A stretch of DNA of 64,000 nt, from positions 1 through 64,000 of the IMG/VR virus record IMGVR_UViG_3300042484_001250, one strand, 5' to 3'. Positions 685 to 43,681 of this stretch are shown piece after piece. Each line of letters starts with the position of its first letter. The first letter of the stretch is position 1. The translations under genes were made by a program, and so were the position numbers. A model generated the notes under the pieces. The model saw only the letters and a program-made list of their open reading frames with translations. It searched no databases and was not told the origin of the DNA. This DNA is from an uncultured virus (IMG/VR IMGVR_UViG_3300042484_001250). Lineage: Duplodnaviria > Heunggongvirae > Uroviricota > Caudoviricetes.

Positions 685-773
685 GGAGGGATGGCAGAGT
701 TGGTCTATCGCACTTGACTTGAAATCAAGAGACTGTAACAGGTCCGTGGGTTCGAATCCTACTCCCTCTTCCA
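685..773 (+). tRNA. tRNA-Ser (TGA)
   Basis: Acceptor GGAGGGA/TCCCTCT, CTTGA-CT-TGA-AA-TCAAG anticodon arm, long variable arm, TTCGAAT, CCA. Confidence 0.95.
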
Positions 774-780
774 TTAAAAT

Positions 781-954
781 TGTAGTGTGTTGGAAAATGA
801 TTAGCACGTGTGTTAATTTGGCAGACAAGCCCTCCTGTCTCGGGGGTGATGAGTACGAAATAGGTTAGTAATATGGGGTAGACCACCAAGCCGGCCGGCG
901 GATGTTACTAACTGAATCGCATTGTGGATGGTTCGAATCCTCCCACTACAGCCA
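781..954 (+). ncRNA. Oversized tRNA-Asp(GTC)-like RNA with D-loop hairpin insert and 79-nt variable arm
   Basis: Acceptor TGTAGTG/CACTACA, then G and CCA; anticodon arm CCCTC-CT-GTC-TC-GGGGG; T-loop TTCGAAT; 174 nt in total. Confidence 0.8.
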
Positions 955-963
955 TATATTTAT

Positions 964-1055
964 AGAGAGTTGGGTGAGTGGCTGATACCAGTAGTTTGCT
1001 AAACTGCCGATGGGGTTAAACCTGTCCACCGGTTCGAATCCGGTACTCTCTACCA
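964..1055 (+). tRNA. tRNA-Ser (GCT)
   Basis: Acceptor AGAGAGT/ACTCTCT, GTAGT-TT-GCT-AA-ACTGC, long variable arm, CCGG-TTCGAAT-CCGG, CCA. Confidence 0.95.
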
Positions 1056-1099
1056 TAAACTAAAACGTTATAACAAATGATTACTTAAACAATAAAACT

Positions 1100-1555
1100 A
1101 TGGATTACAGGAAATTGTATTGTGGAGAAGAAGTTCACTTAGAGAGCTACATCGCCGAATACTTAGAAACACACCACGATGTAGATATCTTAATTGGATG
1201 CGATTCGCAAAACTTTTCGGATAAAACGATATACGCTGTTGTGGTTGCCCTGTATAATAGAGGTAAAGGTGCTCACGTATTATATCGTAGATGGAAAGTT
1301 GGAAGAGAACCAGCTCGTTCAGTTAGATTATTAAATGAAGTATGGTATGCCATTGAAACTGCGGAAACATTACAAGCTGCTGGTATTCCAAAAGCAAGAT
1401 GGATTGATGTGGACTTGAACCCAGACCCAAGATACAAATCAAACGAAGTGTTCAGACAGGCGGTTGGTATGGTTGAAGGTATGGGTTATGAAGTTAGATA
1501 CAAAACATTAGGTCCAATTGCAACTTATGCAGCTGATTACTTAGTTAAACTATAA
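1100..1555 (+). CDS. RNase H-like YkuK (DUF458) family protein
   Basis: IGCDSQ, RLLNEV, DVDLNP, ATYAAD pattern typical of the family. Confidence 0.8.
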   Translation: MDYRKLYCGEEVHLESYIAEYLETHHDVDILIGCDSQNFSDKTIYAVVVALYNRGKGAHVLYRRWKVGREPARSVRLLNEVWYAIETAETLQAAGIPKARWIDVDLNPDPRYKSNEVFRQAVGMVEGMGYEVRYKTLGPIATYAADYLVKL

Positions 1556-1564
1556 AAAATAATT

Positions 1565-2110
1565 ATGAAAGATAATTTTTATCAAATGCGATTTCCTGAA
1601 CATAGAGAGGGTTTGCAACAAATGATTGATTGGGTAAATAATGTAACACCAACATCTGAAATGAGGATGATTGAAATTGGTAGTTATGTTGGTGAAAGTA
1701 CTTTAATGTTTGCCCAAAACTTTAAAGAAGTGGTATCGGTAGACCCTTTTGTTAATTATGATGTTGATTTTGATTTTATTTCAAACGGATATGCACCATT
1801 TGATAAAGTATATGCTGAATTTATAAAGAATACATTACCCCTATCAAACATAAAATCAATAAGAGATACATCAGAAAATGCGTTCCCAATCCTAAACCAA
1901 CAACAATGGGATATGGTTTACATTGATGGATTGCATACCGTTGATGGTGTTTACTATGATATTACGCATTATAAAAGTATAATTAAGCCAGGTGGGTTTG
2001 TATGTGGGCATGATTATGGTTGGGGAAATATTAGACATAACTTGGGTAAAATTTTTGATGATAAAGTAGACGCTACATTTAAAGATGGGAGTTGGGTAGT
2101 TAGAATATAA
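1565..2110 (+). CDS. Class I SAM-dependent methyltransferase (Methyltransf_24-like)
   Basis: IEIGSYVGES motif I, DMVYIDGLH, KPGGFVCGHDY. Confidence 0.85.
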   Translation: MKDNFYQMRFPEHREGLQQMIDWVNNVTPTSEMRMIEIGSYVGESTLMFAQNFKEVVSVDPFVNYDVDFDFISNGYAPFDKVYAEFIKNTLPLSNIKSIRDTSENAFPILNQQQWDMVYIDGLHTVDGVYYDITHYKSIIKPGGFVCGHDYGWGNIRHNLGKIFDDKVDATFKDGSWVVRI

Positions 2111-2157
2111 TTAGGATATTCCAATATTTATTTGTATATTTACAAAAAAATAAAAAG

Positions 2158-2415
2158 ATGGCTGAATTTAGTAAGCAATATTGCGAACTCCATAATCCCC
2201 AATTAGGATGGGATTTTGATATAGATGAAATAATAACCGAAATACCTTGTGGATATTACAAAAGTATTATTTGTGAGGGTTTTGGGTTTATAGGAGTTGG
2301 TATTGGTATGGATAGAAGAGTTAATCTACTATTCCCAGATGACGGTGGTGGATTTGATAAAGTAGACTATATCAAATTTATGAAAAATCAAAGTATAACG
2401 TCAGACGGAATTTAA
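2158..2415 (+). CDS. Hypothetical protein
   Basis: 85-aa ORF in gene-dense + strand run, downstream of a promoter-like motif. Confidence 0.6.
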   Translation: MAEFSKQYCELHNPQLGWDFDIDEIITEIPCGYYKSIICEGFGFIGVGIGMDRRVNLLFPDDGGGFDKVDYIKFMKNQSITSDGI

Positions 2416-2418
2416 TAT

Positions 2419-3945
2419 ATGAAAATTGTTATAGTAGGTGGGGGAACTGCAGGTTGGATGGCTGCGTGTTATGTGGCAAGATTTAATCAATCAGGTAATA
2501 ATATAAATGATATCACAGTTATAGAATCATCCAAAATACCAATAATTGGTGCAGGTGAAGGTTCAACTGGTACATTTACTCAAATAGTAAATCATCATTT
2601 TAAAAATTGGGGTATAAATGAACCCGAATTCTTAAATAAAACTAAATCAACATTAAAGTTAGGCATACGATTTAAAGATTGGAATGGTGTGGGTACTGAA
2701 TTCCTAAGTCCTATACAACAGTCCGAAACAAATCATCATACTATTGATACTCATTTATTAGTATCTCATATATTAGGTGATTATGCAAACGCATCTCCAT
2801 CTGGTTATCTTATGAACAAAAATCTATCATCTTATATTTCAACCGATGGTAGAAGTATAATGGGCCATTCGTATCACTTTGATGCACATGCGGTGGGTAA
2901 ATATTGGAAAGAATATGCACTTAAAAATGGTGTTAGAGTAATAGATAGTGAAGTCCTATCCTTAAACAAAAATACACAAAATGGTGAGTTAGACAGTGTA
3001 GAAACTACCAAAGGAACTATCGAAGGTGATTTGTGGATTGATTGTAGTGGATTTGCTAGAGTTTTAATCAATCCAATGGGTGGTGGGTGGAAAAGTTATT
3101 CAGAATACCTACCAACAAATAATGCAATGCCATTCATCCAACAATTCGAACCAAACGAAGTTCCTAAGTTGGAAACACTATCACACGCTCTATCAAATGG
3201 ATGGATGTGGAAAATACCAACGCAAGAAAGATATGGTTGTGGGTACGTTTATTCGGATATGTTTACTACCGAAGAGAAAGCATTAGCTGAATTAAGGAAA
3301 TCATTAGGTAAAGATGTAGAACCCATCCGTAATATTAAATTTGATTGTGGTAGATTAGAAAACATTTGGGTAAAGAATGTGGTTGCGGTGGGATTATCTG
3401 CTGGATTTGTTGAACCATTAGAAGCAACATCCATACATACTACCATCGTACAATTAGATTACCTATCAACTATTTCATTAAATTTTGCCACTACAAAAGA
3501 AAATGTAAACTTTGAAACCAATATAAATCAGCACAATACTTTTTTAAATAAGTTATTTGATGATATTAAAGATTTGATTCAACTACACTATATGAGTGAT
3601 AGAGAAGATACGGAGTTTTGGAAGTATTGTAAGTATGATTTAAAACGAACCGATAAAGTAAAACATATATTAGACGTGGCAAAACACAGATGCCCATCTA
3701 CGTTGAACTTTGATTTTTATCGTGGAGCAGGTAATTGGGGGGTTTGGTGTTGGACTATGATGGGGATGGGTCATATAACTAAAGAAGTATCACAACATAC
3801 TTTAGATTCTTATGGATATACACCAAAAAGTATTAAAGATGAGTTTGATTCTGTTAATCGTAAAAATATGCTAAATGGAATTAAAGTTATGAAAAATACT
3901 GAATTCTTTGATGCACTAACTAAAGGTAAAATTAGTAAAAAATAA
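2419..3945 (+). CDS. Flavin-dependent (tryptophan-halogenase family) halogenase
   Basis: GGGTAGW FAD motif, IGAGE, TLKLGI with the catalytic Lys, IDCSGF, WMWKIP (WxWxIP), GFVEPLEAT. Confidence 0.92.
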   Translation: MKIVIVGGGTAGWMAACYVARFNQSGNNINDITVIESSKIPIIGAGEGSTGTFTQIVNHHFKNWGINEPEFLNKTKSTLKLGIRFKDWNGVGTEFLSPIQQSETNHHTIDTHLLVSHILGDYANASPSGYLMNKNLSSYISTDGRSIMGHSYHFDAHAVGKYWKEYALKNGVRVIDSEVLSLNKNTQNGELDSVETTKGTIEGDLWIDCSGFARVLINPMGGGWKSYSEYLPTNNAMPFIQQFEPNEVPKLETLSHALSNGWMWKIPTQERYGCGYVYSDMFTTEEKALAELRKSLGKDVEPIRNIKFDCGRLENIWVKNVVAVGLSAGFVEPLEATSIHTTIVQLDYLSTISLNFATTKENVNFETNINQHNTFLNKLFDDIKDLIQLHYMSDREDTEFWKYCKYDLKRTDKVKHILDVAKHRCPSTLNFDFYRGAGNWGVWCWTMMGMGHITKEVSQHTLDSYGYTPKSIKDEFDSVNRKNMLNGIKVMKNTEFFDALTKGKISKK

Positions 3946-3947
3946 AA

Positions 3948-4364
3948 ATGGATATTGAAGAAGAAGTTATATATCATCTTTCGCAAAATGTGAAAACCGA
4001 AATAAGACCTTCTAAAGTAGATGGCGTGGGTGTATTTGCTATAAGAGATATATTAAAGGGTGAAAATGTTTTTCCAGAATGGCAGTTGAAATCTGGAATA
4101 TATTTGGTATCAAATGAAAAATTAAACAAAATTCCATCCGAAGTACTCAATTTATTAGATAAGTATTTTATAAATGGTGAGTGTGGATTTAAAATAATAA
4201 GATTGTTTGAGGGGTTAAACTTTATGTTCAATCCCTTTTGCTTTTGCAATTCGGCATATCCAAACAAAGAAAATGTAAACATATCAACCAAGGGAATTGC
4301 ACTTAGATACATAAAAAAAGATGAAGAAATATTTGAATGGTATGATGAAAATATTTTAAAATAA
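3948..4364 (+). CDS. SET-domain protein (putative lysine methyltransferase)
   Basis: SKVDGVGVFAIRDILKGE ... FCNS ... ALRYIKKDEEIFEWY matches SET motifs. Confidence 0.8.
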   Translation: MDIEEEVIYHLSQNVKTEIRPSKVDGVGVFAIRDILKGENVFPEWQLKSGIYLVSNEKLNKIPSEVLNLLDKYFINGECGFKIIRLFEGLNFMFNPFCFCNSAYPNKENVNISTKGIALRYIKKDEEIFEWYDENILK

Positions 4365-4387
4365 TTTAAAAATATTTGGCAAAAAGC

Positions 4388-4418
4388 TTGTATAATTCAT
4401 AAAAATTGCGTACCTTTA
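4388..4418 (+). promoter_or_regulatory. Bacteroidota-type early promoter
   Basis: TTG-N20-TACCTTTA, one of 13 copies located with the same spacing. Confidence 0.75.
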
Positions 4419-4464
4419 TTACGTGGTACTGGAGTTAGTATCACTTCACTAAAACCCCTTTTTT

Positions 4465-4824
4465 ATGAGTTTACCATTCAATCTTAATTCAGTTTTAGAA
4501 ACCGCTTCTTTAATAGAAGGGTTTGAAGTTGTTAAAAACGCTTTCCCCGTTGAAGGACGTTTTACAAAACGTATCATCACATATGGCGATGCAGTTTATG
4601 AGGCACTTTCTGAAGTTGCCGATGATTACTCTGATTGGCCGGAAGACCAGGGGTTTGGTTCATCTGATATGACTTATGTTCGTAAGTCATTTATTGATTC
4701 ATTAATTGATATGGCTAACCTTAGAGGTTACTACGAAACCAAGTTTGCTCCTTACCTTAAAGTGGTAGAGTATTCGGAAGCAGAATACCACAATATGATG
4801 TTCCGTAGGGAGAGAGGTTTATAA
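4465..4824 (+). CDS. Hypothetical protein
   Basis: 119 aa after promoter and AACCCC leader motif. Confidence 0.75.
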   Translation: MSLPFNLNSVLETASLIEGFEVVKNAFPVEGRFTKRIITYGDAVYEALSEVADDYSDWPEDQGFGSSDMTYVRKSFIDSLIDMANLRGYYETKFAPYLKVVEYSEAEYHNMMFRRERGL

Positions 4825-4825
4825 A

Positions 4826-4875
4826 AAAATAAATGAGAAAAGGCTTGACTTTCTCATTTATTTTACTTACCTTTA
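4826..4875 (+). promoter_or_regulatory. Inverted repeat (terminator-like) overlapping an early promoter
   Basis: AAAATAAATGAGAAA / TTTCTCATTTATTTT encloses TTG (4845-4847); TACCTTTA at 4868-4875. Confidence 0.7.
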
Positions 4876-4910
4876 TTAAGTAATAAGAGTTCAACATAAC
4901 CCCCTTTAAT

Positions 4911-5159
4911 ATGAATAATTTCGAATTTACCTTTAAAACTTTTTCTGAATATATTTCGGCTCGTATAACTGGGTATATTCCCGATTACAAATGTGTTAGA
5001 ATGCACGTTGCCACTCCCGAAGGTGGTAGTATGGATTTCCCCTTACATAGTGAAGAGGAATATAATGAGTATTTAACCAAATACTTACCAAGCAACGGTT
5101 GTTCATTGATTAAAGTTTATCCGTCAGTTACCTTTTACGAATCAGAATATTGTTATTAA
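4911..5159 (+). CDS. Hypothetical protein
   Basis: 82-aa ORF after promoter. Confidence 0.7.
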   Translation: MNNFEFTFKTFSEYISARITGYIPDYKCVRMHVATPEGGSMDFPLHSEEEYNEYLTKYLPSNGCSLIKVYPSVTFYESEYCY

Positions 5160-5177
5160 TCTTTAAAATATAAAACT

Positions 5178-5627
5178 ATGGGACTTTTCAGTTGGAACAC
5201 AATGGATACTAATAAGAGTATCGCTAGTACTTTCTCTAATCGTGATACGTTTAGAGTTTATATGACGGATAATGCCGGAAACATTTGGACGGAAAATGAT
5301 TACGAAGGTTATGGTGTATTTGGTGGTAAAGATTTCTATGAATTACTTGCCGAAATGAACGGATTTGTTTCCGAATTAAAAGGTGATGAATACAATAATG
5401 CTGCTAGATTGTTTGCTATTGATTTGGTATTTGCTAATAATAATCATTCTGGTGATTTTGCTGAAGGTGTGTTTTATCCTAACTTAACTGAAAAAGTAGA
5501 AGGTTGGGTGTACGATATGAAAGGACCTGAAAGATGTGAGCATCAAGGTTACTTCTACGATGATGATGAAGATGAGGATGATGAGTATAATGAAGAGGAG
5601 TACGCTGAAGAAGAAGAAAATTATTAA
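5178..5627 (+). CDS. Hypothetical phage protein with acidic tail
   Basis: 149 aa; MGLFSW, YEGYGVFGGKDFYELLA. Confidence 0.75.
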   Translation: MGLFSWNTMDTNKSIASTFSNRDTFRVYMTDNAGNIWTENDYEGYGVFGGKDFYELLAEMNGFVSELKGDEYNNAARLFAIDLVFANNNHSGDFAEGVFYPNLTEKVEGWVYDMKGPERCEHQGYFYDDDEDEDDEYNEEEYAEEEENY

Positions 5628-5638
5628 ACCCCAAATAT

Positions 5639-5899
5639 ATGGATATCAGAGAGAAATATAGAGAGCGAGCTATTCAATTCGCTAATGAGTGGAAATCAGA
5701 GTTTCCAAATGTAAGTGACCACAACATTGAAATGATGGTTTCGATTATGGCAACGCGTGATAAGACATCGTATCCTGGCGGTGGTTTCGTAGAAGCAGTT
5801 TGTGCTAACGATTTGGTTGGAGCAGTTACTCGTGCGGATAGTGATAACATTAGAGTTATTAAGTTATTGGCACTCACACATAAACAATGTTACTTATAA
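5639..5899 (+). CDS. Hypothetical phage protein
   Basis: 86 aa; PGGGFVEAV-NDL-RAD pattern. Confidence 0.7.
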   Translation: MDIREKYRERAIQFANEWKSEFPNVSDHNIEMMVSIMATRDKTSYPGGGFVEAVCANDLVGAVTRADSDNIRVIKLLALTHKQCYL

Positions 5900-5903
5900 T
5901 AAT

Positions 5904-6455
5904 ATGAATACTAATGTAAATAGAAGTCCTTATTTGGATGGATTGGCAGCAAAAGAAGAATTTAATAACACCTTACCATTGTTGGAAACTATTTTTGGAG
6001 AATGCATCAGAGTTGGTAGGTCTCAAGTATTTAAATTTGAAAATGATGGAAATCCAATCATAATAAGAATTATAGCAGCACCATCAAATCCTAAACTTGT
6101 TGGTGAAATGAAAAGCGTAATTAAAACGTTAAAAGACAAATTACCTTTCTATACATTTTTTACCAGAGATGTTAAGACATATCCAGAATCTAAAGAAACA
6201 TATTATGATAAATTAAAATCATTATATAAATTACGAAAACCATTCAAAGGTGCTATTATGGGTATTGATGAGTTAAAATCTCAAAATGTAATTGATACAA
6301 TAAAAAATGGGCAATTGTTACCATTAAACCTAAATCGTTACAAAGATATTGGTGGTGAGATATCGTTAGAAAGAGCATTGATGGAGCAGTTTGGAATAAC
6401 AGCTAAGAAAGCAAAAGAAAAAGCAGAAGCAATAAAAGTATTACTTATAAAATAA
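5904..6455 (+). CDS. Hypothetical protein
   Basis: In-frame ATG at 5904 just after the upstream stop; basic protein. Confidence 0.65.
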   Translation: MNTNVNRSPYLDGLAAKEEFNNTLPLLETIFGECIRVGRSQVFKFENDGNPIIIRIIAAPSNPKLVGEMKSVIKTLKDKLPFYTFFTRDVKTYPESKETYYDKLKSLYKLRKPFKGAIMGIDELKSQNVIDTIKNGQLLPLNLNRYKDIGGEISLERALMEQFGITAKKAKEKAEAIKVLLIK

Positions 6456-32322: not shown

Positions 32323-32982
32323 ATGAAGATTATTTTGAATAAAGGTCAAAAGTTGTGGTTCACTTCAGATACCCACTTTAATCACGCAAATATTTGTAGA
32401 GGCACTACCGAATGGGATAAGAGCAAACCGAATCACTTTAGAGATTTTGATTCTTTGGGTGAGATGAATGATAGGTTAGTTGCTGGTATCAATACCGTAG
32501 TTGGGGAGAATGATATCCTAATCCATTTAGGTGACTGGTCTTTCGGTGGGTTTGATTCCATTAGAGAGTTCCGTAGCAGATTGAATTGCAAGAACATCCA
32601 TTTAGTATTAGGAAACCACGACCATCACATTGGAAGAAATAAAGATGGGGTGCAGGATTGTTTCATTAGTGTAAACCATTTAGTTAATTTGGTTGTTAAG
32701 TGGAATGTTGGAACTCTAAATCAAAAGGAAGCACAATTTGTTTTGATGCACTTTCCAATTGCTAGTTGGGAAAATTTAGGTAGGGGTGTTATTCACTTAC
32801 ACGGACACGTTCACTTACCTAACCATCGTAGAGTTGGTAATGGTAAAGTTATGGATGTGGGTGTAGATGGAAATGGTTTAGACCCTATTAGTTTAGAAGA
32901 GATATTAAAGATTATGGAGAAACAACCAATAGGTAGTATGATGCCAAATGACCACCACACTATGGTTGAAAATTATAGATAA
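32323..32982 (+). CDS. Calcineurin-like phosphoesterase
   Basis: FTSDTHFNH, HLGD, GNHD, HFP, LHGHVH, DVGVD. Confidence 0.9.
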   Translation: MKIILNKGQKLWFTSDTHFNHANICRGTTEWDKSKPNHFRDFDSLGEMNDRLVAGINTVVGENDILIHLGDWSFGGFDSIREFRSRLNCKNIHLVLGNHDHHIGRNKDGVQDCFISVNHLVNLVVKWNVGTLNQKEAQFVLMHFPIASWENLGRGVIHLHGHVHLPNHRRVGNGKVMDVGVDGNGLDPISLEEILKIMEKQPIGSMMPNDHHTMVENYR

Positions 32983-32985
32983 AAT

Positions 32986-33186
32986 ATGGAAAAGTTTAAT
33001 TATGTGATTGCACGAATGTGGTTTAAGGATAGTAATCAATTAAACTGCTACACATATCACAATACAGTATTCTATGGTACTATGGAAGAAGCCGAAGAAC
33101 AATTAGAGTTCATCAAAGGTAGAGCCGATACGAATATAGCAGATGAGTTTTGTATTTACAAAGTAGAAGATAAACCAATAAAGTAA
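32986..33186 (+). CDS. Small hypothetical protein
   Basis: 66 aa between the phosphoesterase and the kinase. Confidence 0.65.
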   Translation: MEKFNYVIARMWFKDSNQLNCYTYHNTVFYGTMEEAEEQLEFIKGRADTNIADEFCIYKVEDKPIK

Positions 33187-33602
33187 TGATACCAAAAATA
33201 TTAACATTAGTAAGAGGATTGCCAGGTAGTGGCAAATCAACATTCGCCAATTGGATTTGGAATGAGTATGCAATATGTGAAGCTGATAAGTTCTTCTATG
33301 ATAAAGAAGGTAACTATAACTTTGATGGTTCTAAATTAAGGCAAGCACATGAATGGTGTAGAAACCAAGTTGAGACTCGTATGAAAGATAACGAAGTCAA
33401 TCCTCAATTTTATCCTGAAATTGTAGTATCAAACACATTTACGCAAGAGTGGGAAATGGAAGCATACTATAAGTTAGCAGAACAATACGGATATAAAGTA
33501 TTCAGTATTATTGTAGAAAATAGACATGGTGGTGTAAATGAGCACGGAGTACCTGCTGAAAAGTTAGAACAAATGAAAAATCGTTTTGAAGTAAAGTTAT
33601 GA
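33186..33602 (+). CDS. P-loop kinase (AAA_33, polynucleotide-kinase-like)
   Basis: RGLPGSGKST, EAD, VSNTF, HGVP. Confidence 0.85.
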   Translation: MIPKILTLVRGLPGSGKSTFANWIWNEYAICEADKFFYDKEGNYNFDGSKLRQAHEWCRNQVETRMKDNEVNPQFYPEIVVSNTFTQEWEMEAYYKLAEQYGYKVFSIIVENRHGGVNEHGVPAEKLEQMKNRFEVKL

Positions 33603-34330
33603 TAGATAATATAGAGCAAATTAAAGGATTACTTAACTTTGAGAAAGAAGGAGATTTCTATATGCTCTATATCTTTAAGCGTAAGAAAGACCAAACAACT
33701 GATAAAGCTAATCATCAATCGGTTCGTACAATCAAATCATATTGTATTGAGAGTGTAGAACATTTAGAACAACGATACGATGAGATTAAACAACTTTGTG
33801 AGATGTTTAAGGCAAGGGCATATATTCATATCAACAAACAAAAACATAAGGATGTTGGTATGCAAATGATTGTTGATATTGTCAATCGCATTCAATCGGG
33901 TCAAATCAATCAAAAGCACGTATTTGATTCGGTGGTTGGACAAGTTAAGATGCACGAAAAAAGATGGATTGTAGATATTGACACAAAGGATGAAAGTTTG
34001 ATTGGTGGTGTAATAAACACAATTGACCAATGTAAACCTATTAAATTTAGAGCAATAGTACATACATACAAAGGAGATGGTACTATTGAAAAATCACTAG
34101 ATATTGTTACAAAGGTGATTAAAAAAATCCCAACTAAATCAGGCTATCATTTAATTACTGAAAGATTTGATGTTATGGAATTTAAGAAACAATATGCTGA
34201 TATCGATATCCAAAAGAAAAACCCAACATTATTATATTACCCTGAAAGTTTAGGTACAAATACAAATAAAATAGCTTATCAAATACTACAAAACTCCACA
34301 TATGGAAAAATGGGTGGTTTGGGAGAATAA
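33599..34330 (+). CDS. Hypothetical protein with AEP/primase-like motifs
   Basis: WIVDID (hhhDhD) and PTKSGYH (sxxGxH). Confidence 0.5.
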   Translation: MIDNIEQIKGLLNFEKEGDFYMLYIFKRKKDQTTDKANHQSVRTIKSYCIESVEHLEQRYDEIKQLCEMFKARAYIHINKQKHKDVGMQMIVDIVNRIQSGQINQKHVFDSVVGQVKMHEKRWIVDIDTKDESLIGGVINTIDQCKPIKFRAIVHTYKGDGTIEKSLDIVTKVIKKIPTKSGYHLITERFDVMEFKKQYADIDIQKKNPTLLYYPESLGTNTNKIAYQILQNSTYGKMGGLGE

Positions 34331-34345
34331 ATAAAAAATTGTAAT

Positions 34346-35512
34346 ATGAAATACGATTTAACATTAATAGGTGATTACATATCCAAAGGATTGGTGATTA
34401 AACAAAATCATCCTACACTTCCATTGGCTATATACAACTATTCACGTGAATGCCAATACAATGGTATGTGGGATGATATTACTTTGAATTGCAGAGGATT
34501 AGTTTTGGATAACGAAGGTAATGTTGTTGCTAAACCTTTTCCAAAGTTCTTTAACTACGAAGAGCACAAACCAGAGGATATCCCAAATGAATACTTTGAG
34601 GTTTATGAAAAGATGGATGGTTCGTTAGGTATATTCTTTTACTATGAGGAAGAGTTGAGTGATGAAAGAAGATATAACATATGGTTTAATAATAATTACG
34701 AAACCGGTATGGAAAGGTTCTTTGACCCAAACAACTTACCTAACTTTGATGACCCATACTATGAACCAACACCAAAAATAAAAGGTGAATGGCATATGAC
34801 AACTCGTGGTTCATTTACTTCCGAACAAGCAATCAAAGGTATGGAGATTGCAAATAAGTACAACTACAATAAGATATGCGTACCTGGCTACACATATCTT
34901 TTTGAAATAATTTATCCTGAAAATCGTATCGTTGTAGATTATGGTAAAGAAGAGAGATTGGTATTGTTGGGCGTTATGAATAGAAGAGGTGAAGAGTTTC
35001 CATATGAAGAGCTTGTGGAAGAAGGTTGGGATATCGTAATGAAGTATAAGACTTGGGGAGAAGATTGGGAAACTTTGAAAAAAGAAATATCCAAAGATAA
35101 TGAAGGATATGTAATTCGTTTTTCAGGCGGTATGCGAATGAAGATTAAAGGTGATGAGTATGTTCGTCTACATAGAATCTTAACTAACTTTTCCACCAAA
35201 GATATATGGGAACTATTAAGAAATAACGAACAGTTAGAACCATTTTTGGATAGAGTACCTGATGAGTTTGATGCTTGGGTGAAAGAAGTTGTTAGGGATT
35301 TACAAACTGAATTTGATACAATTAAAAATAAAATTGAAATAGAATTCAGAGAGTTAATAGATAAGAAAGAGTTTGCTGATAAGATTGCAGATAATCCTAA
35401 TAGGTCTTTATTATTCAAAAGGTTGGATTCATATTCGCCGCAATTTGATGAAATGATTTGGAAATTGTTAAAGCCAAAGTATGAAAAACCTTTCAAAAAA
35501 GATGAAAAATAA
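34346..35512 (+). CDS. T4 Rnl1-type RNA ligase
   Basis: CRGLV, PFPKFFN, EKMDGS motif I, FEII, NRIVVDY, EGYV, KIKG. Confidence 0.9.
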   Translation: MKYDLTLIGDYISKGLVIKQNHPTLPLAIYNYSRECQYNGMWDDITLNCRGLVLDNEGNVVAKPFPKFFNYEEHKPEDIPNEYFEVYEKMDGSLGIFFYYEEELSDERRYNIWFNNNYETGMERFFDPNNLPNFDDPYYEPTPKIKGEWHMTTRGSFTSEQAIKGMEIANKYNYNKICVPGYTYLFEIIYPENRIVVDYGKEERLVLLGVMNRRGEEFPYEELVEEGWDIVMKYKTWGEDWETLKKEISKDNEGYVIRFSGGMRMKIKGDEYVRLHRILTNFSTKDIWELLRNNEQLEPFLDRVPDEFDAWVKEVVRDLQTEFDTIKNKIEIEFRELIDKKEFADKIADNPNRSLLFKRLDSYSPQFDEMIWKLLKPKYEKPFKKDEK

Positions 35513-40420: not shown

Positions 40421-43400
40421 TTAGTTGAATAGGTATCTTACACCTAATTGAATTTGGTAGCGAGAACCAAATCCTACGTTATCTCTGAATGAATCAGTAA
40501 ACGGAACTTTGTTTCTTCCATCCAAATATGGGAATGCGAAGATTGGTGTTTTACCATCAGTATCCAATTTAACAAAGTTAAGTGGAGTGATTGTTGTAGG
40601 TAATTGTTGAACACCCAATTTACTACTAATAAAGTTTGTGAAGTTATATACATCAGCAGTAAAACGTAATGTATGCTTTATAGCTCCAACTTTAATGTAA
40701 ACATCTTGCGTTAAATTCAAATCTAATCTATGAACCCACGGAAGAACTAATGCTTGTCTTTCTGCCATCATACCTCTACGAGTTGAAAGATAAGGATTGT
40801 TTGAAATAAAAGCATCTAATTGAGACCATAGTTCAGCTTGTGTTCTTGTATCAGCTACACCACTTACCGCAGATGCGTTAGTTAATTTGATTTGAGATGC
40901 ATCTTTAGGAACGAAGATTAAATCGTTACCATTGAAACCATCGTTATTCAAATCACCACCATATGTGTATGAAAGAGATGTTTGTGCGCTGTTAGGAGAT
41001 GCTTCATACAATAAACCAATTGAAGTTCTTGTATTCTTAATAAATTCCTTACCATAGTTCACACTAGCAATAATTCTATGAGGTAAATAGTTGTTTGAAA
41101 AACCTGCCTCAAAGTTGTTAGGGTCAGTACCAGTCGGTCTAGCTCCCCACATTGTAAATGCAGTTGAACCATTGATTGTTGCATCTACTGCCGTTTGGCG
41201 AGTATAAGAAGCGTTTACACCTAAGTTATTAAATTGTCTTTGGATTTGTAATGTTCCAAATAAAGTATGACCGATGTTTGCATTCGTCATATAGATTGCA
41301 TTACCAATGTTTGGATTCTCCGCAGTTTGAGCCGCACCAACCGCATCATATACCGAACGTTTAACGAAACGAGTTCTACCATCACTTAATGTTGTGTTAC
41401 CCGATGATGGTAATGCAACGTTTTGGAAAACAGTAGCGTTGATGTTTTGGATATAAGTTCCCTCCGCAGTTACGGTCCAACCTAATACTTTCTTATCAAC
41501 TGCTAATGTAGATTTCCAAACCTGTGGGAATTTATAATTAGGGTCAGTTACGTTAAGAGAATATGATTTGGATAAACCTGGCGTTGGCGTTGGTCTATAT
41601 TTATCAATATCAGGTGAGAATACATATCCAGTTCCATTTGTAATAGAGCCAAATAATGCCATACCACTATTAGATGCCTGATTTGAAATCCATACAAATG
41701 GTGGAGGTCCTTGGAATAAACCAGTACCACCTCGTATTTGTAAAGTTTGGTCATCATTCACATCCCAGTTAAATCCAACTCTTGGTGATATTTGTAGTGA
41801 AGCAGATGGTGCTAAACCTGTGTTTAATTTCGTACCATTATAGAACTTATCTAAACCAGCAACTACTGGATTGAAAAGGAAGTTATCAGCAAACGAAACA
41901 TAATCAGCTCTAATACCATATGTTAAAGTTAAATTATCTTTTACTCTAAACTTATCTTGCGCAAATAAACTTAACTCCATATTCTTTGGTCCAACCAATG
42001 GGAAACCACCACTCAATGAATATGATAAATCATAGAACGCTGCTGGTTTTGTTCCTGCTGCCGAAGCGTAGAAATCTGCTAAACTATTGAAACGATATGC
42101 ACCTGCGAATGAAGGTGAAAAACCATTTGAATAAGTTTTGAATGAGTTTTGTGTACCAAATGTAAATTCGTGCTTACCTTTGTATAAGTTGAAAATGTTA
42201 TTAAGTTGAATTACATCAGTATTCAATACGTTACCATATGTAAATCTTTCATAACCAAACGTTGTGTAAGGTAAGCCATTACCATCTAAGATATCTACTT
42301 GTGGGAAATTACCAACACTTAAAGGTGCTCTATAATCTCTCAATTGAGTATATCCAATTTGCAATTTGTTATTTGCCGAATTAGAGAATCGAGTGTTCAA
42401 CTCACCAATTAAGATATCCGCATCGTTGTTGATGATGTATCCACTACCAAAGAAAGGCATTGCTGTGTTACCCGGTCTTCTACCATTTGATGAGTTAATT
42501 GAACCACTATTAGATGCTGGGATATCAGCTGAAGAACGTAACATTGTATATTTCAATGAGAACGAATTCTTTGCATTAATATTCCAATCTATCTTTGCAG
42601 TTAATCTTTGTGATTTAGAACCATACTGATAACCTTGATATGCACCGGGGTCATATTTGTAAGTATCAATTAAGAACTTTCTCAACGCATCTAAATCAGA
42701 TGTTTTTGCCTGTGATACGTTAGTACCATTTGGTGTATTGTTAGCATCTGATGCTACCCATTGAGTACCCGGCTCCATTCTTTCTTCTTGCTCTCCGTTT
42801 AAGAAGAAAAACAACTTATCCTTAACAATTGCACCACCTGCGGTGAAACCTTTAAGGTCATATGTGAATGGTTGTTGTGGTAAAGTGATATCACCTACCT
42901 TATACCCTTGCAAATCTTTATTCTTAAAAAATTGGTAAACCGAACCAAATGCCTGATTCTTACCACTACGAGTTACAGTGTTCACCGAGCCACCTGCGAA
43001 ACCACCATACTTAACATCAAAAGGAGAAACGTTTACTTGGATTTGTTCAATCGCATCTAATGAGATTGGTTGCGCTCCAGTCTGTCCTCCCAATGTTCCA
43101 TCACCCAATCCAAATGAGTTATTGAAGTTCGCACCATCTAATGTTACGTTATTCAATTGAGAACTCATACCACCAAACGATAAGTTGTTTTGTGATGGTA
43201 CTAATTTAACTAAATCTTTCCAACTACGATTTACGTTTGGTACTGATTCGATTAATCTTCTATTGATAATCTCCTGCGAACCATTACGGCTTGAGTTGAA
43301 AACTTTGTTTTGACCTGATACAACAACGACTTCGTTTAAGGTAGTAGATGATTCCACTAAATTAAAGTTAGCTCTATGTGTCTGTCCTAACAATAATGTA

Positions 43401-43681
43401 ATATCATTTTGTGTTTCGTTTTTGTATCCCACAAATGATACTGTAACTACATAAGGTCCTCCAATTTTTAAGTTTGGTAGGTTATATCTTCCATCAGCAC
43501 GAGTGGTTGTACCATACTTCGTACCGGTTGGTTGATGGATAGCCTGTACAGTTGCACCTGCGATAGCTTCCTTACCTGCCAAAACATTACCTTGAATTTC
43601 TGATGTAGTTTCTTGTGCAAATGCTCCAAATGATGATACGAATACCAACAAAAGTAACATTAGATTTTTTAACTTTCTCAT
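40421..43681 (-). CDS. TonB-dependent outer-membrane receptor, Oar-like, with N-terminal carboxypeptidase-regulatory-like domain
   Basis: Signal peptide, LNEVVV, QPISLDAIEQIQV...PFDV..GGF.GG.VN.VTRSG plug, SPRVGFNWD, C-terminal QLGVRYLFN. Confidence 0.92.
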   Translation of the reverse strand: MRKLKNLMLLLLVFVSSFGAFAQETTSEIQGNVLAGKEAIAGATVQAIHQPTGTKYGTTTRADGRYNLPNLKIGGPYVVTVSFVGYKNETQNDITLLLGQTHRANFNLVESSTTLNEVVVVSGQNKVFNSSRNGSQEIINRRLIESVPNVNRSWKDLVKLVPSQNNLSFGGMSSQLNNVTLDGANFNNSFGLGDGTLGGQTGAQPISLDAIEQIQVNVSPFDVKYGGFAGGSVNTVTRSGKNQAFGSVYQFFKNKDLQGYKVGDITLPQQPFTYDLKGFTAGGAIVKDKLFFFLNGEQEERMEPGTQWVASDANNTPNGTNVSQAKTSDLDALRKFLIDTYKYDPGAYQGYQYGSKSQRLTAKIDWNINAKNSFSLKYTMLRSSADIPASNSGSINSSNGRRPGNTAMPFFGSGYIINNDADILIGELNTRFSNSANNKLQIGYTQLRDYRAPLSVGNFPQVDILDGNGLPYTTFGYERFTYGNVLNTDVIQLNNIFNLYKGKHEFTFGTQNSFKTYSNGFSPSFAGAYRFNSLADFYASAAGTKPAAFYDLSYSLSGGFPLVGPKNMELSLFAQDKFRVKDNLTLTYGIRADYVSFADNFLFNPVVAGLDKFYNGTKLNTGLAPSASLQISPRVGFNWDVNDDQTLQIRGGTGLFQGPPPFVWISNQASNSGMALFGSITNGTGYVFSPDIDKYRPTPTPGLSKSYSLNVTDPNYKFPQVWKSTLAVDKKVLGWTVTAEGTYIQNINATVFQNVALPSSGNTTLSDGRTRFVKRSVYDAVGAAQTAENPNIGNAIYMTNANIGHTLFGTLQIQRQFNNLGVNASYTRQTAVDATINGSTAFTMWGARPTGTDPNNFEAGFSNNYLPHRIIASVNYGKEFIKNTRTSIGLLYEASPNSAQTSLSYTYGGDLNNDGFNGNDLIFVPKDASQIKLTNASAVSGVADTRTQAELWSQLDAFISNNPYLSTRRGMMAERQALVLPWVHRLDLNLTQDVYIKVGAIKHTLRFTADVYNFTNFISSKLGVQQLPTTITPLNFVKLDTDGKTPIFAFPYLDGRNKVPFTDSFRDNVGFGSRYQIQLGVRYLFN

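What the first reader, a model, noticed from the sequence alone, without database searches (positions are those of the whole stretch)
781..954. 174-nt tRNA-Asp-like RNA with two large structured insertions
Seen: it lies between two normal tRNA-Ser genes and keeps a full tRNA frame, with a 7-bp acceptor (781-787/944-950), G discriminator plus CCA, anticodon GTC at 837-839 and a TTCGAAT T-loop. It also carries three departures. First, a roughly 22-nt hairpin (ATTAGCAC/GTGTTAAT) sits inside a class-II-style D-loop (GGAA...TTGGCAGAC). Second, the variable arm is 79 nt (847-925), with a 12-bp helix (863-874/902-913) ending in two small hairpins, one the palindrome GCCGGCCGGC. Third, the T-stem has a bulged base and position 37 is a pyrimidine. 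Known: GUC and G73 are the main aspartyl-tRNA synthetase identity elements. Inference: the intact pairing argues for selection rather than decay. It could be a tRNA-scaffold ncRNA, a synthetase or anticodon-nuclease decoy, or a precursor spliced by the phage's own RNA ligase operon.
Basis: partly seen in the sequence, partly recalled or inferred. Interest (0 to 1): 0.88.

Follow-up and report, generated by a model that had tools for sequence, protein, structure and literature searches.

The report
Phage-borne aspartate-type tRNA-like RNA
A lake phage carries a 174-base gene for an RNA shaped like an aspartate tRNA with a large extra arm; it belongs to a conserved family, apparently undescribed, that Bacteroidota bacteria keep beside an asparagine-type regulator gene, so it probably works with the cell's aspartate/asparagine tRNA enzymes rather than reading codons.

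Summary
Window 781-954 folds as a full tRNA frame with a GUC loop, a D-loop hairpin and a 76-nt branched variable arm. ARAGORN and Rfam do not call it.

It is not a decayed tRNA. I found 78 distinct phage copies: 93.4% of pair cells are paired and 42 of 51 pairs show compensatory changes. The D-loop hairpin is optional; the variable arm is always present.

The family keeps G34, U35, C36, C38, G73 and G2-C71, the aspartyl-tRNA synthetase identity set. It does not keep U33 or a purine at 37. Pair 1-72 is U-A, the GatCAB amidotransferase determinant.

A covariance model also found copies in 28 of 151 Bacteroidia genomes. In 24 of 30 bacterial loci the RNA lies divergent from an AsnC-like regulator. 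All 28 carrier genomes have that regulator and gatB.

Best reading: a non-decoding, aspartate-identity tRNA mimic working with AspRS and GatCAB in Asp/Asn metabolism, captured by phages. Phage copies add a perfect palindrome that may dimerise the RNA. Charging, expression ends and function are untested. I found no prior description, and earlier notes of this scan do not describe it.

The parts
781..954 (+). whole tRNA-like RNA gene (174 nt including encoded CCA)
   Evidence: Covariance model R1 scores it 160.1 bits, E 2.8e-43. Single copy in the 133-kb phage record.
781..787 (+). acceptor stem 5' strand; pairs with 944-950. U1-A72 and G2-C71 are fixed.
   Evidence: 100% of cells paired; 6 of 7 pairs show compensatory change. 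U-A at 1:72 in 77 of 78 phage and 33 of 33 bacterial copies. G-C at 2:71 in all copies.
944..954 (+). acceptor stem 3' strand 944-950, discriminator G951, CCA 952-954
   Evidence: G73 and C74 in 78 of 78 phage copies. CCA is encoded in 8 of 78.
790..828 (+). D arm: 3-bp stem 790-792/826-828, loop with G18 G19 (820-821) and an inserted hairpin within 799-818
   Evidence: D stem is 98.7% paired and 2 of 3 pairs covary. The insert is present in 59 of 78 copies, and 50 of those 59 fold alone as a hairpin of 4 bp or more. It is absent from 19 of 78.
830..846 (+). anticodon-like arm: stem 830-834/842-846, loop 835-841 CUGUCUC (GUC 837-839, U37 840, C38 841)
   Evidence: Stem is 100% paired and all 5 pairs covary. 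GUC and C38 in 78 of 78. Position 33 is U 54, C 22, A 2. Position 37 is U 75, C 3.
848..923 (+). variable arm. Base stem 848-851/920-923; 4-nt bulge 852-855; 3-bp helix 856-858/917-919; purine-rich internal loop 859-862/914-916; long helix 863-873/903-913; three-way junction.
   Evidence: Helices are 92.9-99.7% paired with compensatory changes and are recovered by RNAalifold. The internal-loop motif is kept in subfamily 2 and in bacterial copies as GGAUAAAC/GCUAAC.
875..887 (+). hairpin A, GGGG-UAGA-CC-A-CC (bulged A)
   Evidence: Nearly invariant in phage copies. The GGGUUGACCAC-type motif is present in 12 of 33 bacterial copies.
   Evidence: A palindrome of 8 nt or more directly after hairpin A in 77 of 78 phage copies, in 12 different sequences. 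A looser scan of the whole arm gives 78 of 78 phage against 2 of 33 bacterial copies. Hairpin energy is 0 to -2.6 kcal/mol; self-duplex energy is -16 to -24 kcal/mol.
926..943 (+). T arm: stem 926-931/939-943 with one extra base (U929), loop 932-938 TTCGAAT
   Evidence: 93.8% paired in the regular register. The extra base is in 24 of 78 copies.
685..773 (+). upstream tRNA-Ser(tga), 7 nt before the RNA
   Evidence: Of the 43 homologous loci with any ARAGORN tRNA call, 30 have a tRNA-Ser within 150 nt upstream, typically at a 4-nt gap.
964..1055 (+). downstream tRNA-Ser(gct)

Best explanation
Window 781-954 is a phage-borne copy of a conserved tRNA-like RNA family, apparently undescribed, whose home is the chromosome of Bacteroidia bacteria. 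There it forms a two-gene module with a divergently oriented AsnC-like (asparagine-type Lrp/AsnC) regulator.

The RNA keeps a complete tRNA core, so it would be matured like a tRNA; in the phage it sits 7 nt behind tRNA-Ser inside a tRNA cluster. It keeps the whole identity set read by aspartyl-tRNA synthetase (G34, U35, C36, C38, G73, G2-C71). Its first pair is U1-A72, the determinant that lets GatCAB amidate Asp to Asn on a tRNA.

It lacks what a decoder needs. U33 is not conserved, position 37 is a pyrimidine, and the variable arm is 76 nt and branched.

Inferred mechanism: host AspRS binds and probably charges it with aspartate, and GatCAB can then convert the aspartate to asparagine. The RNA would thus act off the ribosome as a carrier or scaffold, or as a titrator, in Asp/Asn-tRNA metabolism. 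In bacteria this would be under asparagine-responsive control. The AT-rich phage (32.8% GC) would express it constitutively with its tRNAs.

Shown here: the structure, its conservation, the identity nucleotides, the synteny and the co-occurrence. Inferred: AspRS and GatCAB recognition, charging, and the physiological role.
For: Structure:
- 78 distinct phage copies give 93.4% paired cells, and 42 of 51 pairs show compensatory change; 0 of 500 shuffles reach this.
- RNAalifold agrees.
- The tertiary pair 26-44 switches between A-C (47) and G-U (24).
- U8, A14, G18, G19, T54, T55, C56 and A58 are invariant.

Identity nucleotides:
- G34, U35, C36, C38 and G73 are in 78 of 78 phage copies. G2-C71 is in 78 of 78.
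- In 33 bacterial copies: GUC 31 of 33, C38 33 of 33, G73 31 of 33, G2-C71 33 of 33, U1-A72 33 of 33.
- Giege and Eriani 2023 (PMC9976931; passages read) name G73, G34, U35, C36 and C38 as the five strong aspartate determinants and G2-C71 as a minor one. They name U1-A72 as the determinant for amidation of Asp-tRNA-Asn, with G1-C72 as the antideterminant.

Not the phage's tRNA-Asp:
- Relatives carry a normal tRNA-Asp(gtc) in the same cluster.
- Those tRNAs have G1-C72 (20 of 21) and loop CUGUCAC (20 of 21). The commonest loop of the mimic (52 of 78) therefore differs from it only at position 37.
- U-A at 1:72 is rare among 475 canonical phage tRNAs (36; mainly Gln and Ile).
- The best-scoring canonical tRNA against the family model is tRNA-Asp, at 41 bits against 94 or more for members.

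Bacterial home:
- 28 of 151 sampled genomes have hits of 74-177 bits, some on megabase contigs.
- 24 of 30 loci (27 of 33 copies) have an AsnC-like ORF 92-430 nt upstream, always divergent.
- The regulator's best NCBIfam match is 'transcriptional regulator AsnC' and its best PDB match is E. coli AsnC 2cg4.
- The regulator is present in 28 of 28 RNA carriers against 9 of 123 others (Fisher 5e-23).
- gatB is present in 28 of 28 carriers against 83 of 123 others (Fisher 6e-5).

Presence in RNA libraries: contigs from four freshwater RNA libraries of four studies carry the RNA unspliced.
Against: - There are no charging, processing or expression-end data. The RNA-library evidence is contigs only and DNA carry-over is possible.
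- G1-C72, which helps place the 3' end in E. coli AspRS (PMC9976931), is replaced by U-A.
- AspRS is recalled to approach tRNA from the variable-loop side, so a 76-nt arm could clash. This is recalled, not tested.
- Two tandem bacterial copies (L304) have UUC instead of GUC.
- AsnB-family asparagine synthetases are present in 5 of 5 carriers and 5 of 5 non-carriers tested, so the RNA is not an obvious sole route to asparagine.
- asnA loci in this class have no AsnC-like neighbour (0 of 5).
- The regulator scores below NCBI's AsnC equivalog cut-off (152-187 bits against 227). Its effector is unknown.
- The co-occurrence counts are not corrected for phylogeny.
- I could not determine the first pair of host tRNA-Asn.
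- The single-sequence fold is no better than shuffles.
Confidence: 0.4

Rival explanations
1. The RNA binds AspRS, GatCAB or both without being productively used. It would then be a competitive titrator that lowers Asp-tRNA-Asp or Asn/Gln transamidation capacity. In phages the palindromic tip could make a dimer that clamps the dimeric AspRS.
For: The same identity-set conservation as above applies. Phage copies specifically add a perfect palindrome of 8 nt or more (78 of 78 phage against 2 of 33 bacterial). Its self-duplex is far more stable than the hairpin. That AspRS is a homodimer is recalled, not tested.
Against: A conserved G73-C74 end and a full acceptor stem fit a chargeable substrate as well as an inhibitor. 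There are no binding data. Bacterial copies lack the palindrome, so dimerisation cannot be the core function.
Confidence: 0.2
2. It is a decoy or shield against a host tRNA-targeting defence nuclease or toxin that attacks tRNA-Asp-type anticodon loops or class-II tRNAs. It would soak up the effector while the phage's own tRNA-Asp keeps working.
For: The loop copies the tRNA-Asp loop except at position 37. The phage carries an RNA-repair-like gene set of phosphoesterase, kinase and Rnl1-type ligase at 32323-35512. Published cases exist of phage tRNAs countering anticodon nucleases; I saw only search listings and abstracts (PMC10264068, PMC11464382, PMC11555353).
Against: It does not explain the invariant acceptor-end nucleotides (U1-A72, G2-C71, G73). 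It does not explain the chromosomal copies in 28 of 151 bacterial genomes tied to an AsnC-like regulator, or the stand-alone copies in phages without tRNA clusters.
Confidence: 0.12
3. It is a structured scaffold whose real business end is the conserved variable arm: the internal loop, hairpin A and the three-way junction bind an unknown protein or RNA. The tRNA body would serve only for processing and stability, as in engineered tRNA scaffolds.
For: The variable arm holds the longest invariant blocks in phage copies. The internal-loop motif survives in all subfamilies.
Against: The distal arm is dispensable: bacterial copies go down to 109 nt and only 12 of 33 keep hairpin A. By contrast GUC, C38, G73, U1-A72 and G2-C71 are kept everywhere. 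Invariance of the loop and of the acceptor end is not needed for a mere scaffold.
Confidence: 0.13
4. It is a genuine decoding tRNA reading GAY codons. It could be a tRNA-Asp variant, or one that inserts Asn or Ser at Asp codons.
For: It has a full tRNA core, a canonical T loop, a GUC triplet and a 7-nt loop. The window copy has U33.
Against: U33 is replaced by C or A in 24 of 78 phage copies, and by G or C in bacterial copies. Position 37 is a pyrimidine in 78 of 78 phage copies. Relatives already have a normal tRNA-Asp. ARAGORN and the Rfam tRNA model reject it.
Confidence: 0.06
5. It is a precursor whose two inserts are removed and the halves joined by the phage RNA ligase, or it is a decaying pseudo-tRNA.
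For: The phage encodes an Rnl1-type ligase. Related phages do have tRNA-Leu-like genes with a short insert in the anticodon loop.
Against: The variable-arm insert is the best conserved part and covaries. RNA-library contigs carry it contiguously and no joints were seen. Stand-alone copies occur in phages, and bacteria keep the arm. The family spans phages from about 90 kb to a 636-kb record, as well as bacteria.
Confidence: 0.03

Closest known systems
Phage T4 stable RNAs rnaC (species 1) and rnaD (species 2) in the T4 tRNA cluster
   Same: These are small stable RNAs of unknown function, encoded among the tRNA genes of a T4-type myovirus (annotation). rnaC has a CCGGG-TTCGAAT-CCCGG T arm. The present phage is T4-like: portal, terminase, gp25 and prohead protease.
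   Different: There is no detectable homology: model R1 does not hit rnaC or rnaD. rnaC lacks a 7-bp acceptor and an anticodon-like arm. No aspartate identity set, bacterial counterpart or regulator is known for them.
tRNA-Asn / tRNA-Asp in tRNA-dependent asparagine formation (ND-AspRS + GatCAB transamidosome)
   Same: Both share G73, a GU-type anticodon read by AspRS, and U1-A72 as the amidotransferase determinant (PMC9976931). All 28 carrier genomes encode gatB.
   Different: The anticodon here is GUC (Asp), not GUU. The body is class-II-like with a 76-nt arm. U33 and a purine at 37 are not kept. No known system uses a dedicated non-decoding tRNA for this step.
tmRNA tRNA-like domain and bacterial YrlA (Y RNA-like) RNAs
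   Same: Both are non-decoding RNAs that mimic tRNA and use tRNA-processing enzymes. The YrlA paper (PMC4201824) was seen only as a search listing and abstract.
   Different: ARAGORN finds no tmRNA and Rfam gives no match to either. There is no G3-U70 and no tag reading frame. Unlike both, this RNA has a real anticodon-type arm and open acceptor ends. No Ro/TROVE protein was found among 95 phage ORFs scanned.
E. coli asnC-asnA divergent pair (AsnC activates asparagine synthetase A)
   Same: The adjacent regulator's best structural and family matches are E. coli AsnC (2cg4, E 1.3e-38; NF008384). It is divergently oriented to its neighbour, as asnC is to asnA; the asnC-asnA arrangement is recalled, not from a call.
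   Different: The neighbour here is an RNA gene, not asnA. The regulator scores below the AsnC equivalog cut-off. asnA in this class is not next to such a regulator (0 of 5).
Class II tRNAs (Ser, Leu, bacterial Tyr) and allo-tRNAs
   Same: Both have a 3-bp D stem, a long variable arm leaving between positions 44 and 48, and G73 as in tRNA-Ser. The RNA sits next to tRNA-Ser genes. tRNA-Leu(taa) is among the best canonical hits to the model.
   Different: The arm is about five times longer and branched. The anticodon is GUC. ARAGORN never calls it in 78 loci.

Membership tests
Canonical elongator tRNA-Asp | Recognised as tRNA by standard detectors | tested here: not met
   ARAGORN gives no call in the window or in 78 homologous loci. 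Rfam RF00005 gives no match even at E up to 10.
Canonical elongator tRNA-Asp | Aspartate identity set G73, G34, U35, C36, C38 (plus G2-C71) | tested here: met
   78 of 78 phage copies. Bacterial copies keep each in 31-33 of 33. The set itself is taken from PMC9976931.
Canonical elongator tRNA-Asp | G1-C72 first pair (strictly conserved in bacterial tRNA-Asp) | tested here: not met
   U-A in 77 of 78 phage and 33 of 33 bacterial copies. Canonical phage tRNA-Asp has G-C in 20 of 21.
Canonical elongator tRNA-Asp | Decoding loop: U33 and a purine at 37 | tested here: not met
   Position 33 is U 54, C 22, A 2. Position 37 is U 75, C 3.
Canonical elongator tRNA-Asp | Class I body (4-5 nt variable loop) | tested here: not met
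   The variable arm is 76 nt, and it is kept in all 78 phage copies.
Substrate of GatCAB amidotransferase (tRNA-Asn/Gln type) | U1-A72 pair | tested here: met
   The determinant is named in PMC9976931.
Substrate of GatCAB amidotransferase (tRNA-Asn/Gln type) | GatCAB present in the organism | tested here: met
   gatB is over its cut-off in 28 of 28 carrier genomes and in 3 of 3 MAGs holding phage-type copies.
Substrate of GatCAB amidotransferase (tRNA-Asn/Gln type) | Actual amidation of the charged RNA; D-loop compatible with GatB | not testable with these tools
   This needs a biochemical assay.
tmRNA | G3-U70, no anticodon arm, tag reading frame | tested here: not met
   ARAGORN finds no tmRNA. 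Pair 3:70 is U-A, C-G or A-U. An anticodon-type arm is present.
T4 rnaC/rnaD-type stable RNA | Sequence or structure homology to rnaC/rnaD | tested here: not met
   Model R1 does not hit L294 1409-1672. blastn of the RNA against 50,697 phage records finds nothing.
T4 rnaC/rnaD-type stable RNA | Non-tRNA stable RNA gene inside the tRNA cluster of a T4-like phage | tested here: met
Intron-containing pre-tRNA | The insert is removed, so it is poorly conserved and spliced forms exist | tested here: not met
   The insert holds the longest invariant blocks. There are no joints in four RNA-library runs (contigs only).
New family defined here (model R1) | Score well above canonical tRNAs with model R1 | tested here: met
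   The window copy scores 160.1 bits and members score 94-175 bits. The best canonical tRNA in phage loci scores 41 bits. In bacterial genomes canonical tRNA-size hits score 57 bits or less.

The most novel reading that the evidence does not exclude
The family is a dedicated, non-decoding 'biosynthetic tRNA'. AspRS loads it with aspartate because of GUC, C38 and G73. GatCAB converts the aspartate to asparagine because of U1-A72. The altered loop and giant arm keep the resulting Asn-RNA(GUC) off the ribosome. An AsnC-like regulator switches the gene on when asparagine is short. AT-rich, asparagine-hungry phages have captured the RNA, and they added a palindrome that dimerises it to match the two-fold AspRS/transamidosome. 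This would be an RNA taking the place of an asparagine synthetase gene.
Probability: 0.2. Interest if true: 0.95.

Novelty: new variant of a known kind. Interest (0 to 1): 0.85.

Why it matters
tRNA-like RNAs that do not decode are few: tmRNA, YrlA and the T4 species 1 and 2 RNAs. The function of the T4 ones has been open for fifty years.

This is a large and clearly structured family. There are at least 119 pattern matches in viral contigs, copies in 28 of 151 sampled Bacteroidia genomes, and one copy in a 636-kb phage. The family gives three concrete handles for experiments:
- It preserves exactly the nucleotides that AspRS and GatCAB read.
- It is genetically tied to an asparagine-type regulator.
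- It occurs in bacteria, so cultured carriers may exist; all genomes searched here are unnamed.

If the RNA is charged and amidated off the ribosome, it would be a new role for the tRNA fold in amino-acid metabolism. It might also help explain why these genomes encode GatB although all three MAGs checked have AsnRS and two have GlnRS.

For phage biology it adds a class of tRNA-cluster cargo that standard annotation (ARAGORN, Rfam) misses completely.

Tried and rejected
Searches that found nothing at the element:
- Rfam at gathering and at E up to 10 found nothing at the element, in either the phage window or the bacterial loci.
- blastn of the window RNA against INPHARED phages gave no match. 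The 551-nt region gave only tRNA-Ser hits.

Folding:
- The single-sequence MFE is not better than shuffles and does not give the cloverleaf.

Ideas considered by eye and dropped:
- Hammerhead, box C/D, k-turn, Ro-binding and tetraloop-receptor readings. The motifs are not conserved in homologues or appear in the wrong order (by eye; no tool test).
- A kissing pair between the GUC loop and GAC in hairpin A. Both are invariant, so covariation cannot test it. The 32/W correlation (C-A 57, U-U 20) tracks clades.

Literature:
- The candidate structured-RNA catalogue of Fremin et al. 2023 (PMC10690425) lists DNAVirus_1850, which is 66 nt and marine, so it is not this RNA. Six of my contig ids are absent from the searchable supplements, but files 1 and 2 could not be searched, so the family may still be listed there.
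- Searches found no description.

Other tests:
- The genome contigs pattern scan gave 120 rows, of which only 3 are real members: short contigs in Algoriphagus, Cytophagales and Bacteroidia MAGs.
- 'The RNA replaces asnA at the same locus': not supported, since 0 of 5 asnA loci have the regulator.
- 'Carriers lack asparagine synthetase B': not supported, 5 of 5 against 5 of 5.
- The host tRNA-Asn first pair: my 13-nt pattern found only other tRNAs, so it remains undetermined.
- Nine regulator copies without an RNA hit: cmsearch with filters off found no RNA nearby, and their neighbours are diverse.
- The sequencing-run index gave only small shares of words, 0.11-0.33, so I draw no habitat claim from unlaid runs.
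Full report
**1. The observation**

The features are:
- a 7-bp acceptor stem (781-787/944-950), G951 and CCA;
- a 3-bp D stem (790-792/826-828);
- a hairpin inserted in the D loop (within 799-818);
- a 5-bp anticodon-like stem with loop CUGUCUC (GUC at 837-839, U at position 37);
- a 76-nt variable arm (848-923) with a long helix ending in two small elements, one of them the palindrome GCCGGCCGGC;
- a T arm with one extra base and a TTCGAAT loop.

It lies between tRNA-Ser(tga) 685-773 and tRNA-Ser(gct) 964-1055. ARAGORN and the Rfam tRNA model do not call it, even at E up to 10. On its own the sequence folds no better than shuffles (z = -0.02) and the MFE is not a cloverleaf. So the case rests on comparison, not on thermodynamics.

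**2. A conserved phage family**

The window is the first 64 kb of a 133-kb linear IMG/VR record. That record holds three tRNAs and one copy of this RNA.
- Relatives of the downstream ORF (an RNaseH_like protein, PF04308) gave 37 phage loci. nhmmer found the RNA in 16 of the 41 loci held at that point.
- Of 111 nhmmer hits in 160 loci, 107 are complete. All 107 have a 7-bp acceptor frame (6 or more pairs) and a TTCRANT loop. Four are cut by contig ends.
- The 78 distinct sequences (150-179 nt) were aligned as A1.
- With my structure (51 pairs, 11 helices), 93.4% of cells pair. Shuffles give 78.1% (0 of 500 reach the observed value) and slid partners give 39-51%. Compensatory change is seen in 42 pairs.
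- RNAalifold, run without guidance, recovers 41 pairs, 31 with compensatory change. It misses only the T stem and the D-loop hairpin, which MAFFT misaligns.
- The best non-helical covariation is the tRNA tertiary pair 26-44 (A-C 47, G-U 24).
- The universal core nucleotides U8, A14, G18, G19, T54, T55, C56 and A58 are invariant.

What varies:
- The D-loop hairpin is absent in 19 of 78. Where present, 50 of 59 inserts fold alone.
- The T-stem extra base is present in 24 of 78.
- CCA is encoded in 8 of 78. G73-C74 is always present, as in the canonical tRNA genes of these phages.

**3. It is not the phage's tRNA-Asp and not a decoder**

Relatives with the RNA also have a normal tRNA-Asp(gtc) in the same cluster, for example L002 and L003. 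In the family, positions 34-36 are GUC and position 38 is C in 78 of 78. Position 33 is U 54, C 22, A 2, and position 37 is U 75, C 3. The 21 distinct canonical phage tRNA-Asp genes have loop CUGUCAC (20 of 21) and G1-C72, G2-C71, G73 (20 of 21). The commonest loop of the mimic (52 of 78) therefore copies the tRNA-Asp loop except at position 37, and the mimic replaces G1-C72 by U1-A72 (77 of 78). Among 475 distinct canonical tRNAs of these loci, only 36 have U-A at 1:72, mostly Gln and Ile.

**4. What the invariant nucleotides mean**

Giege and Eriani 2023 (PMC9976931; passages read) state the following:
- Aspartate identity rests on five strong determinants, G73, G34, U35, C36 and C38, with G2-C71 as a minor one.
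- G1-C72 helps position the 3' end in E. coli AspRS.
- Amidation of Asp-tRNA-Asn is conferred by U1-A72 and prevented in tRNA-Asp by G1-C72 and U20a.
- Serine identity rests on the long variable arm and G73.

The family keeps every aspartate determinant and G2-C71, and adds the amidotransferase determinant. It does not keep what the ribosome needs. This is an inference from sequence; nothing here shows binding or charging.

**5. The family is bacterial as well**

I built a covariance model (R1: 171 positions, 45 pairs). It separates members (94-175 bits; window 160.1) from canonical tRNAs (41 bits or less; the best is tRNA-Asp, followed by tRNA-Ile and tRNA-Leu).

I searched 151 genomes drawn from the GTDB class of an Algoriphagus MAG that holds phage-type copies.
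- The model found hits of 74-177 bits in 28 genomes, several on megabase contigs and three as tandem pairs.
- I fetched 30 bacterial loci. They hold 33 copies of 109-178 nt.
- ARAGORN finds no tRNA within 6 kb in 7 of the 8 loci checked.
- The copies keep U1-A72 (33 of 33), G2-C71 (33 of 33), G73 (31 of 33), GUC (31 of 33; the L304 tandem pair has UUC) and C38 (33 of 33).
- They keep a shorter arm in which the internal-loop motif GGAUAAAC/GCUAAC recurs (by eye). Only 12 of 33 keep hairpin A.

**6. Synteny and co-occurrence**

- In 24 of 30 bacterial loci (27 of 33 copies), the gene immediately upstream is an Lrp/AsnC-family regulator. It is 92-430 nt away and always divergent.
- Its best NCBIfam match is 'transcriptional regulator AsnC' at 152-187 bits. 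This is below the 227-bit equivalog cut-off, and the next families score 83 or less. Its best PDB match is E. coli AsnC 2cg4 (E 1.3e-38; the next is 2e-25).
- Flanking genes otherwise differ between loci, so regulator plus RNA is a two-gene module.
- In the 151-genome sample the regulator (E at most 1e-40) is in 37 genomes. That includes all 28 RNA carriers and 9 of 123 others (Fisher 5e-23).
- gatB is in 111 genomes, including all 28 carriers against 83 of 123 others (Fisher 6e-5). One non-carrier in that tally, G102, is flagged unpublished.
- These tests ignore shared ancestry.
- The three MAGs with phage-type copies have gatB (3 of 3), asnS (3 of 3) and glnS (2 of 3).

**7. Results against the asparagine-synthesis reading**

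- AsnB-family synthetases are present in 5 of 5 carriers and 5 of 5 non-carriers tested.
- asnA is rare (5 of 151) and absent from carriers, but its loci have no AsnC-like neighbour (0 of 5).
- Two of the nine regulator-only genomes have asnA (p = 0.054).
- The nine regulator-only loci have no RNA nearby even with filters off, and their neighbours are diverse.
- I could not find host tRNA-Asn genes to read their first pair.

**8. Phage-specific features**

- In phage copies the segment after hairpin A is a perfect palindrome of 8 nt or more in 77 of 78, and of 10 nt in 74. There are 12 different palindrome sequences, and the fourth pair covaries.
- A looser scan of the whole arm gives 78 of 78 phage against 2 of 33 bacterial copies.
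- As hairpins these segments are worth 0 to -2.6 kcal/mol. As self-duplexes they are worth -16 to -24 kcal/mol.
- I therefore suggest RNA-RNA dimerisation in the phage versions. This is an inference only.
- A second phage subfamily (L281-L286 and L111) stands alone in a replication module (DNA polymerase A, helicase, SPL, DnaB) with no tRNA nearby. One of its phages is a 97%-complete 90.8-kb record.
- A 636-kb uncultured phage, LR756504.1, has a 145-nt member.
- In tRNA-cluster phages the RNA usually follows tRNA-Ser. Of the 43 loci with any tRNA call, 30 have a tRNA-Ser within 150 nt upstream, typically at a 4-nt gap.

**9. Expression**

Contigs from four freshwater RNA libraries of four studies cover 810-952, 818-938, 820-940 and 847-942 with 1-5 differences. 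They show no joints. Summed depth over 816-863 reaches about 6000 in one library, against about 35 over the tRNA-Ser flank. That depth comes from relatives that diverge in the arm. Contigs cannot show ends or strand, and DNA carry-over is possible, so this is only a hint that the unspliced RNA is abundant.

**10. Reading**

Shown: a conserved, structured tRNA-like RNA family shared by Bacteroidia and their phages. It has the aspartate identity set, U1-A72 and non-decoder loop features, and it is tied to an AsnC-like regulator and to gatB-positive genomes.

Inferred: AspRS recognises and probably charges it, GatCAB may amidate it, and it acts off the ribosome in Asp/Asn metabolism. The phage expresses it with its tRNAs.

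The rivals are a non-productive titrator of AspRS or GatCAB, a decoy for tRNA-targeting defences, a scaffold for an unknown partner of the arm, a true decoder, and a spliced precursor. They are weighed in their own sections.

I found no description in Rfam 15 or in the literature searches. One catalogue's largest supplements could not be searched.

Noticed in passing
window 32323-35512: An RNA-repair-like gene row: calcineurin-type phosphoesterase (32323-32982), AAA_33 kinase-like protein (33186-33602), an unassigned ORF (33599-34330) and a T4 Rnl1-type RNA ligase (34346-35512).
   Followed up: no
window 1100-1555: An RNaseH_like (PF04308) ORF embedded in the tRNA cluster. Relatives sit in the tRNA clusters of 37 phage loci, many with near-complete tRNA sets of 17-23 tRNAs per 6 kb.
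   Followed up: partly
L019 1298-1412; L021 1299-1412: tRNA-Leu(TAA)-like genes with an insert of about 26 nt inside the anticodon loop. ARAGORN does not call them; model R1 hits them weakly.
   Followed up: no
L035 4204-4333; L034 4722-4827; L032 4462-4565; L287 10253-10392: A second family of long (104-140 nt) tRNA-like genes. They have a GCG/CGC D stem, an ACAGG-TTCGAAT-CCTGT T arm, discriminator A and a large insert in place of the anticodon/variable region. One is the only Rfam tRNA hit in a 97%-complete 90.8-kb phage.
   Followed up: partly
L039 1237-1364: A 128-nt tRNA-like element with a GGAGG-TTCGAAT-CCTCC T arm, in the closest relative of the window's phage. ARAGORN does not call it.
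   Followed up: no
window 40421-43681 (-) and genome 69488-71971 (+): Two TonB-dependent-receptor-like proteins with CarboxypepD_reg domains encoded by the phage. Together with the MAG hits this points to a Bacteroidota host.
   Followed up: no
window 2419-4364: A tryptophan-halogenase-family flavoprotein (2419-3945) followed by a SET-domain protein (3948-4364), just downstream of the tRNA cluster.
   Followed up: no
window 816-863 in RNA runs X8 and X9: Summed contig depth of 1000-6000 over the D-loop 3' part and the anticodon-like arm only. It comes from relatives whose variable arms differ (loose ends such as GGATAAAC...GGGTTGACC), which suggests very abundant related RNAs in lake metatranscriptomes.
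   Followed up: partly
window 890-899 and the same place in homologues: The phage-only palindromes are all different and many contain classic 6-bp restriction-type sites (for example CTGCAG, GCATGC, GCTAGC, GCCGGC). A DNA-level meaning was not examined.
   Followed up: no
L301 3730-4182: In one of the bacterial loci that lack the AsnC-like neighbour, a D-Tyr-tRNA deacylase (Dtd) gene lies 2 kb upstream of the RNA.
   Followed up: no
L302 12101-12221: A Flavo-1 RNA (RF01705, 46.4 bits) about 6 kb from the tandem RNA pair. It is probably unrelated.
   Followed up: no
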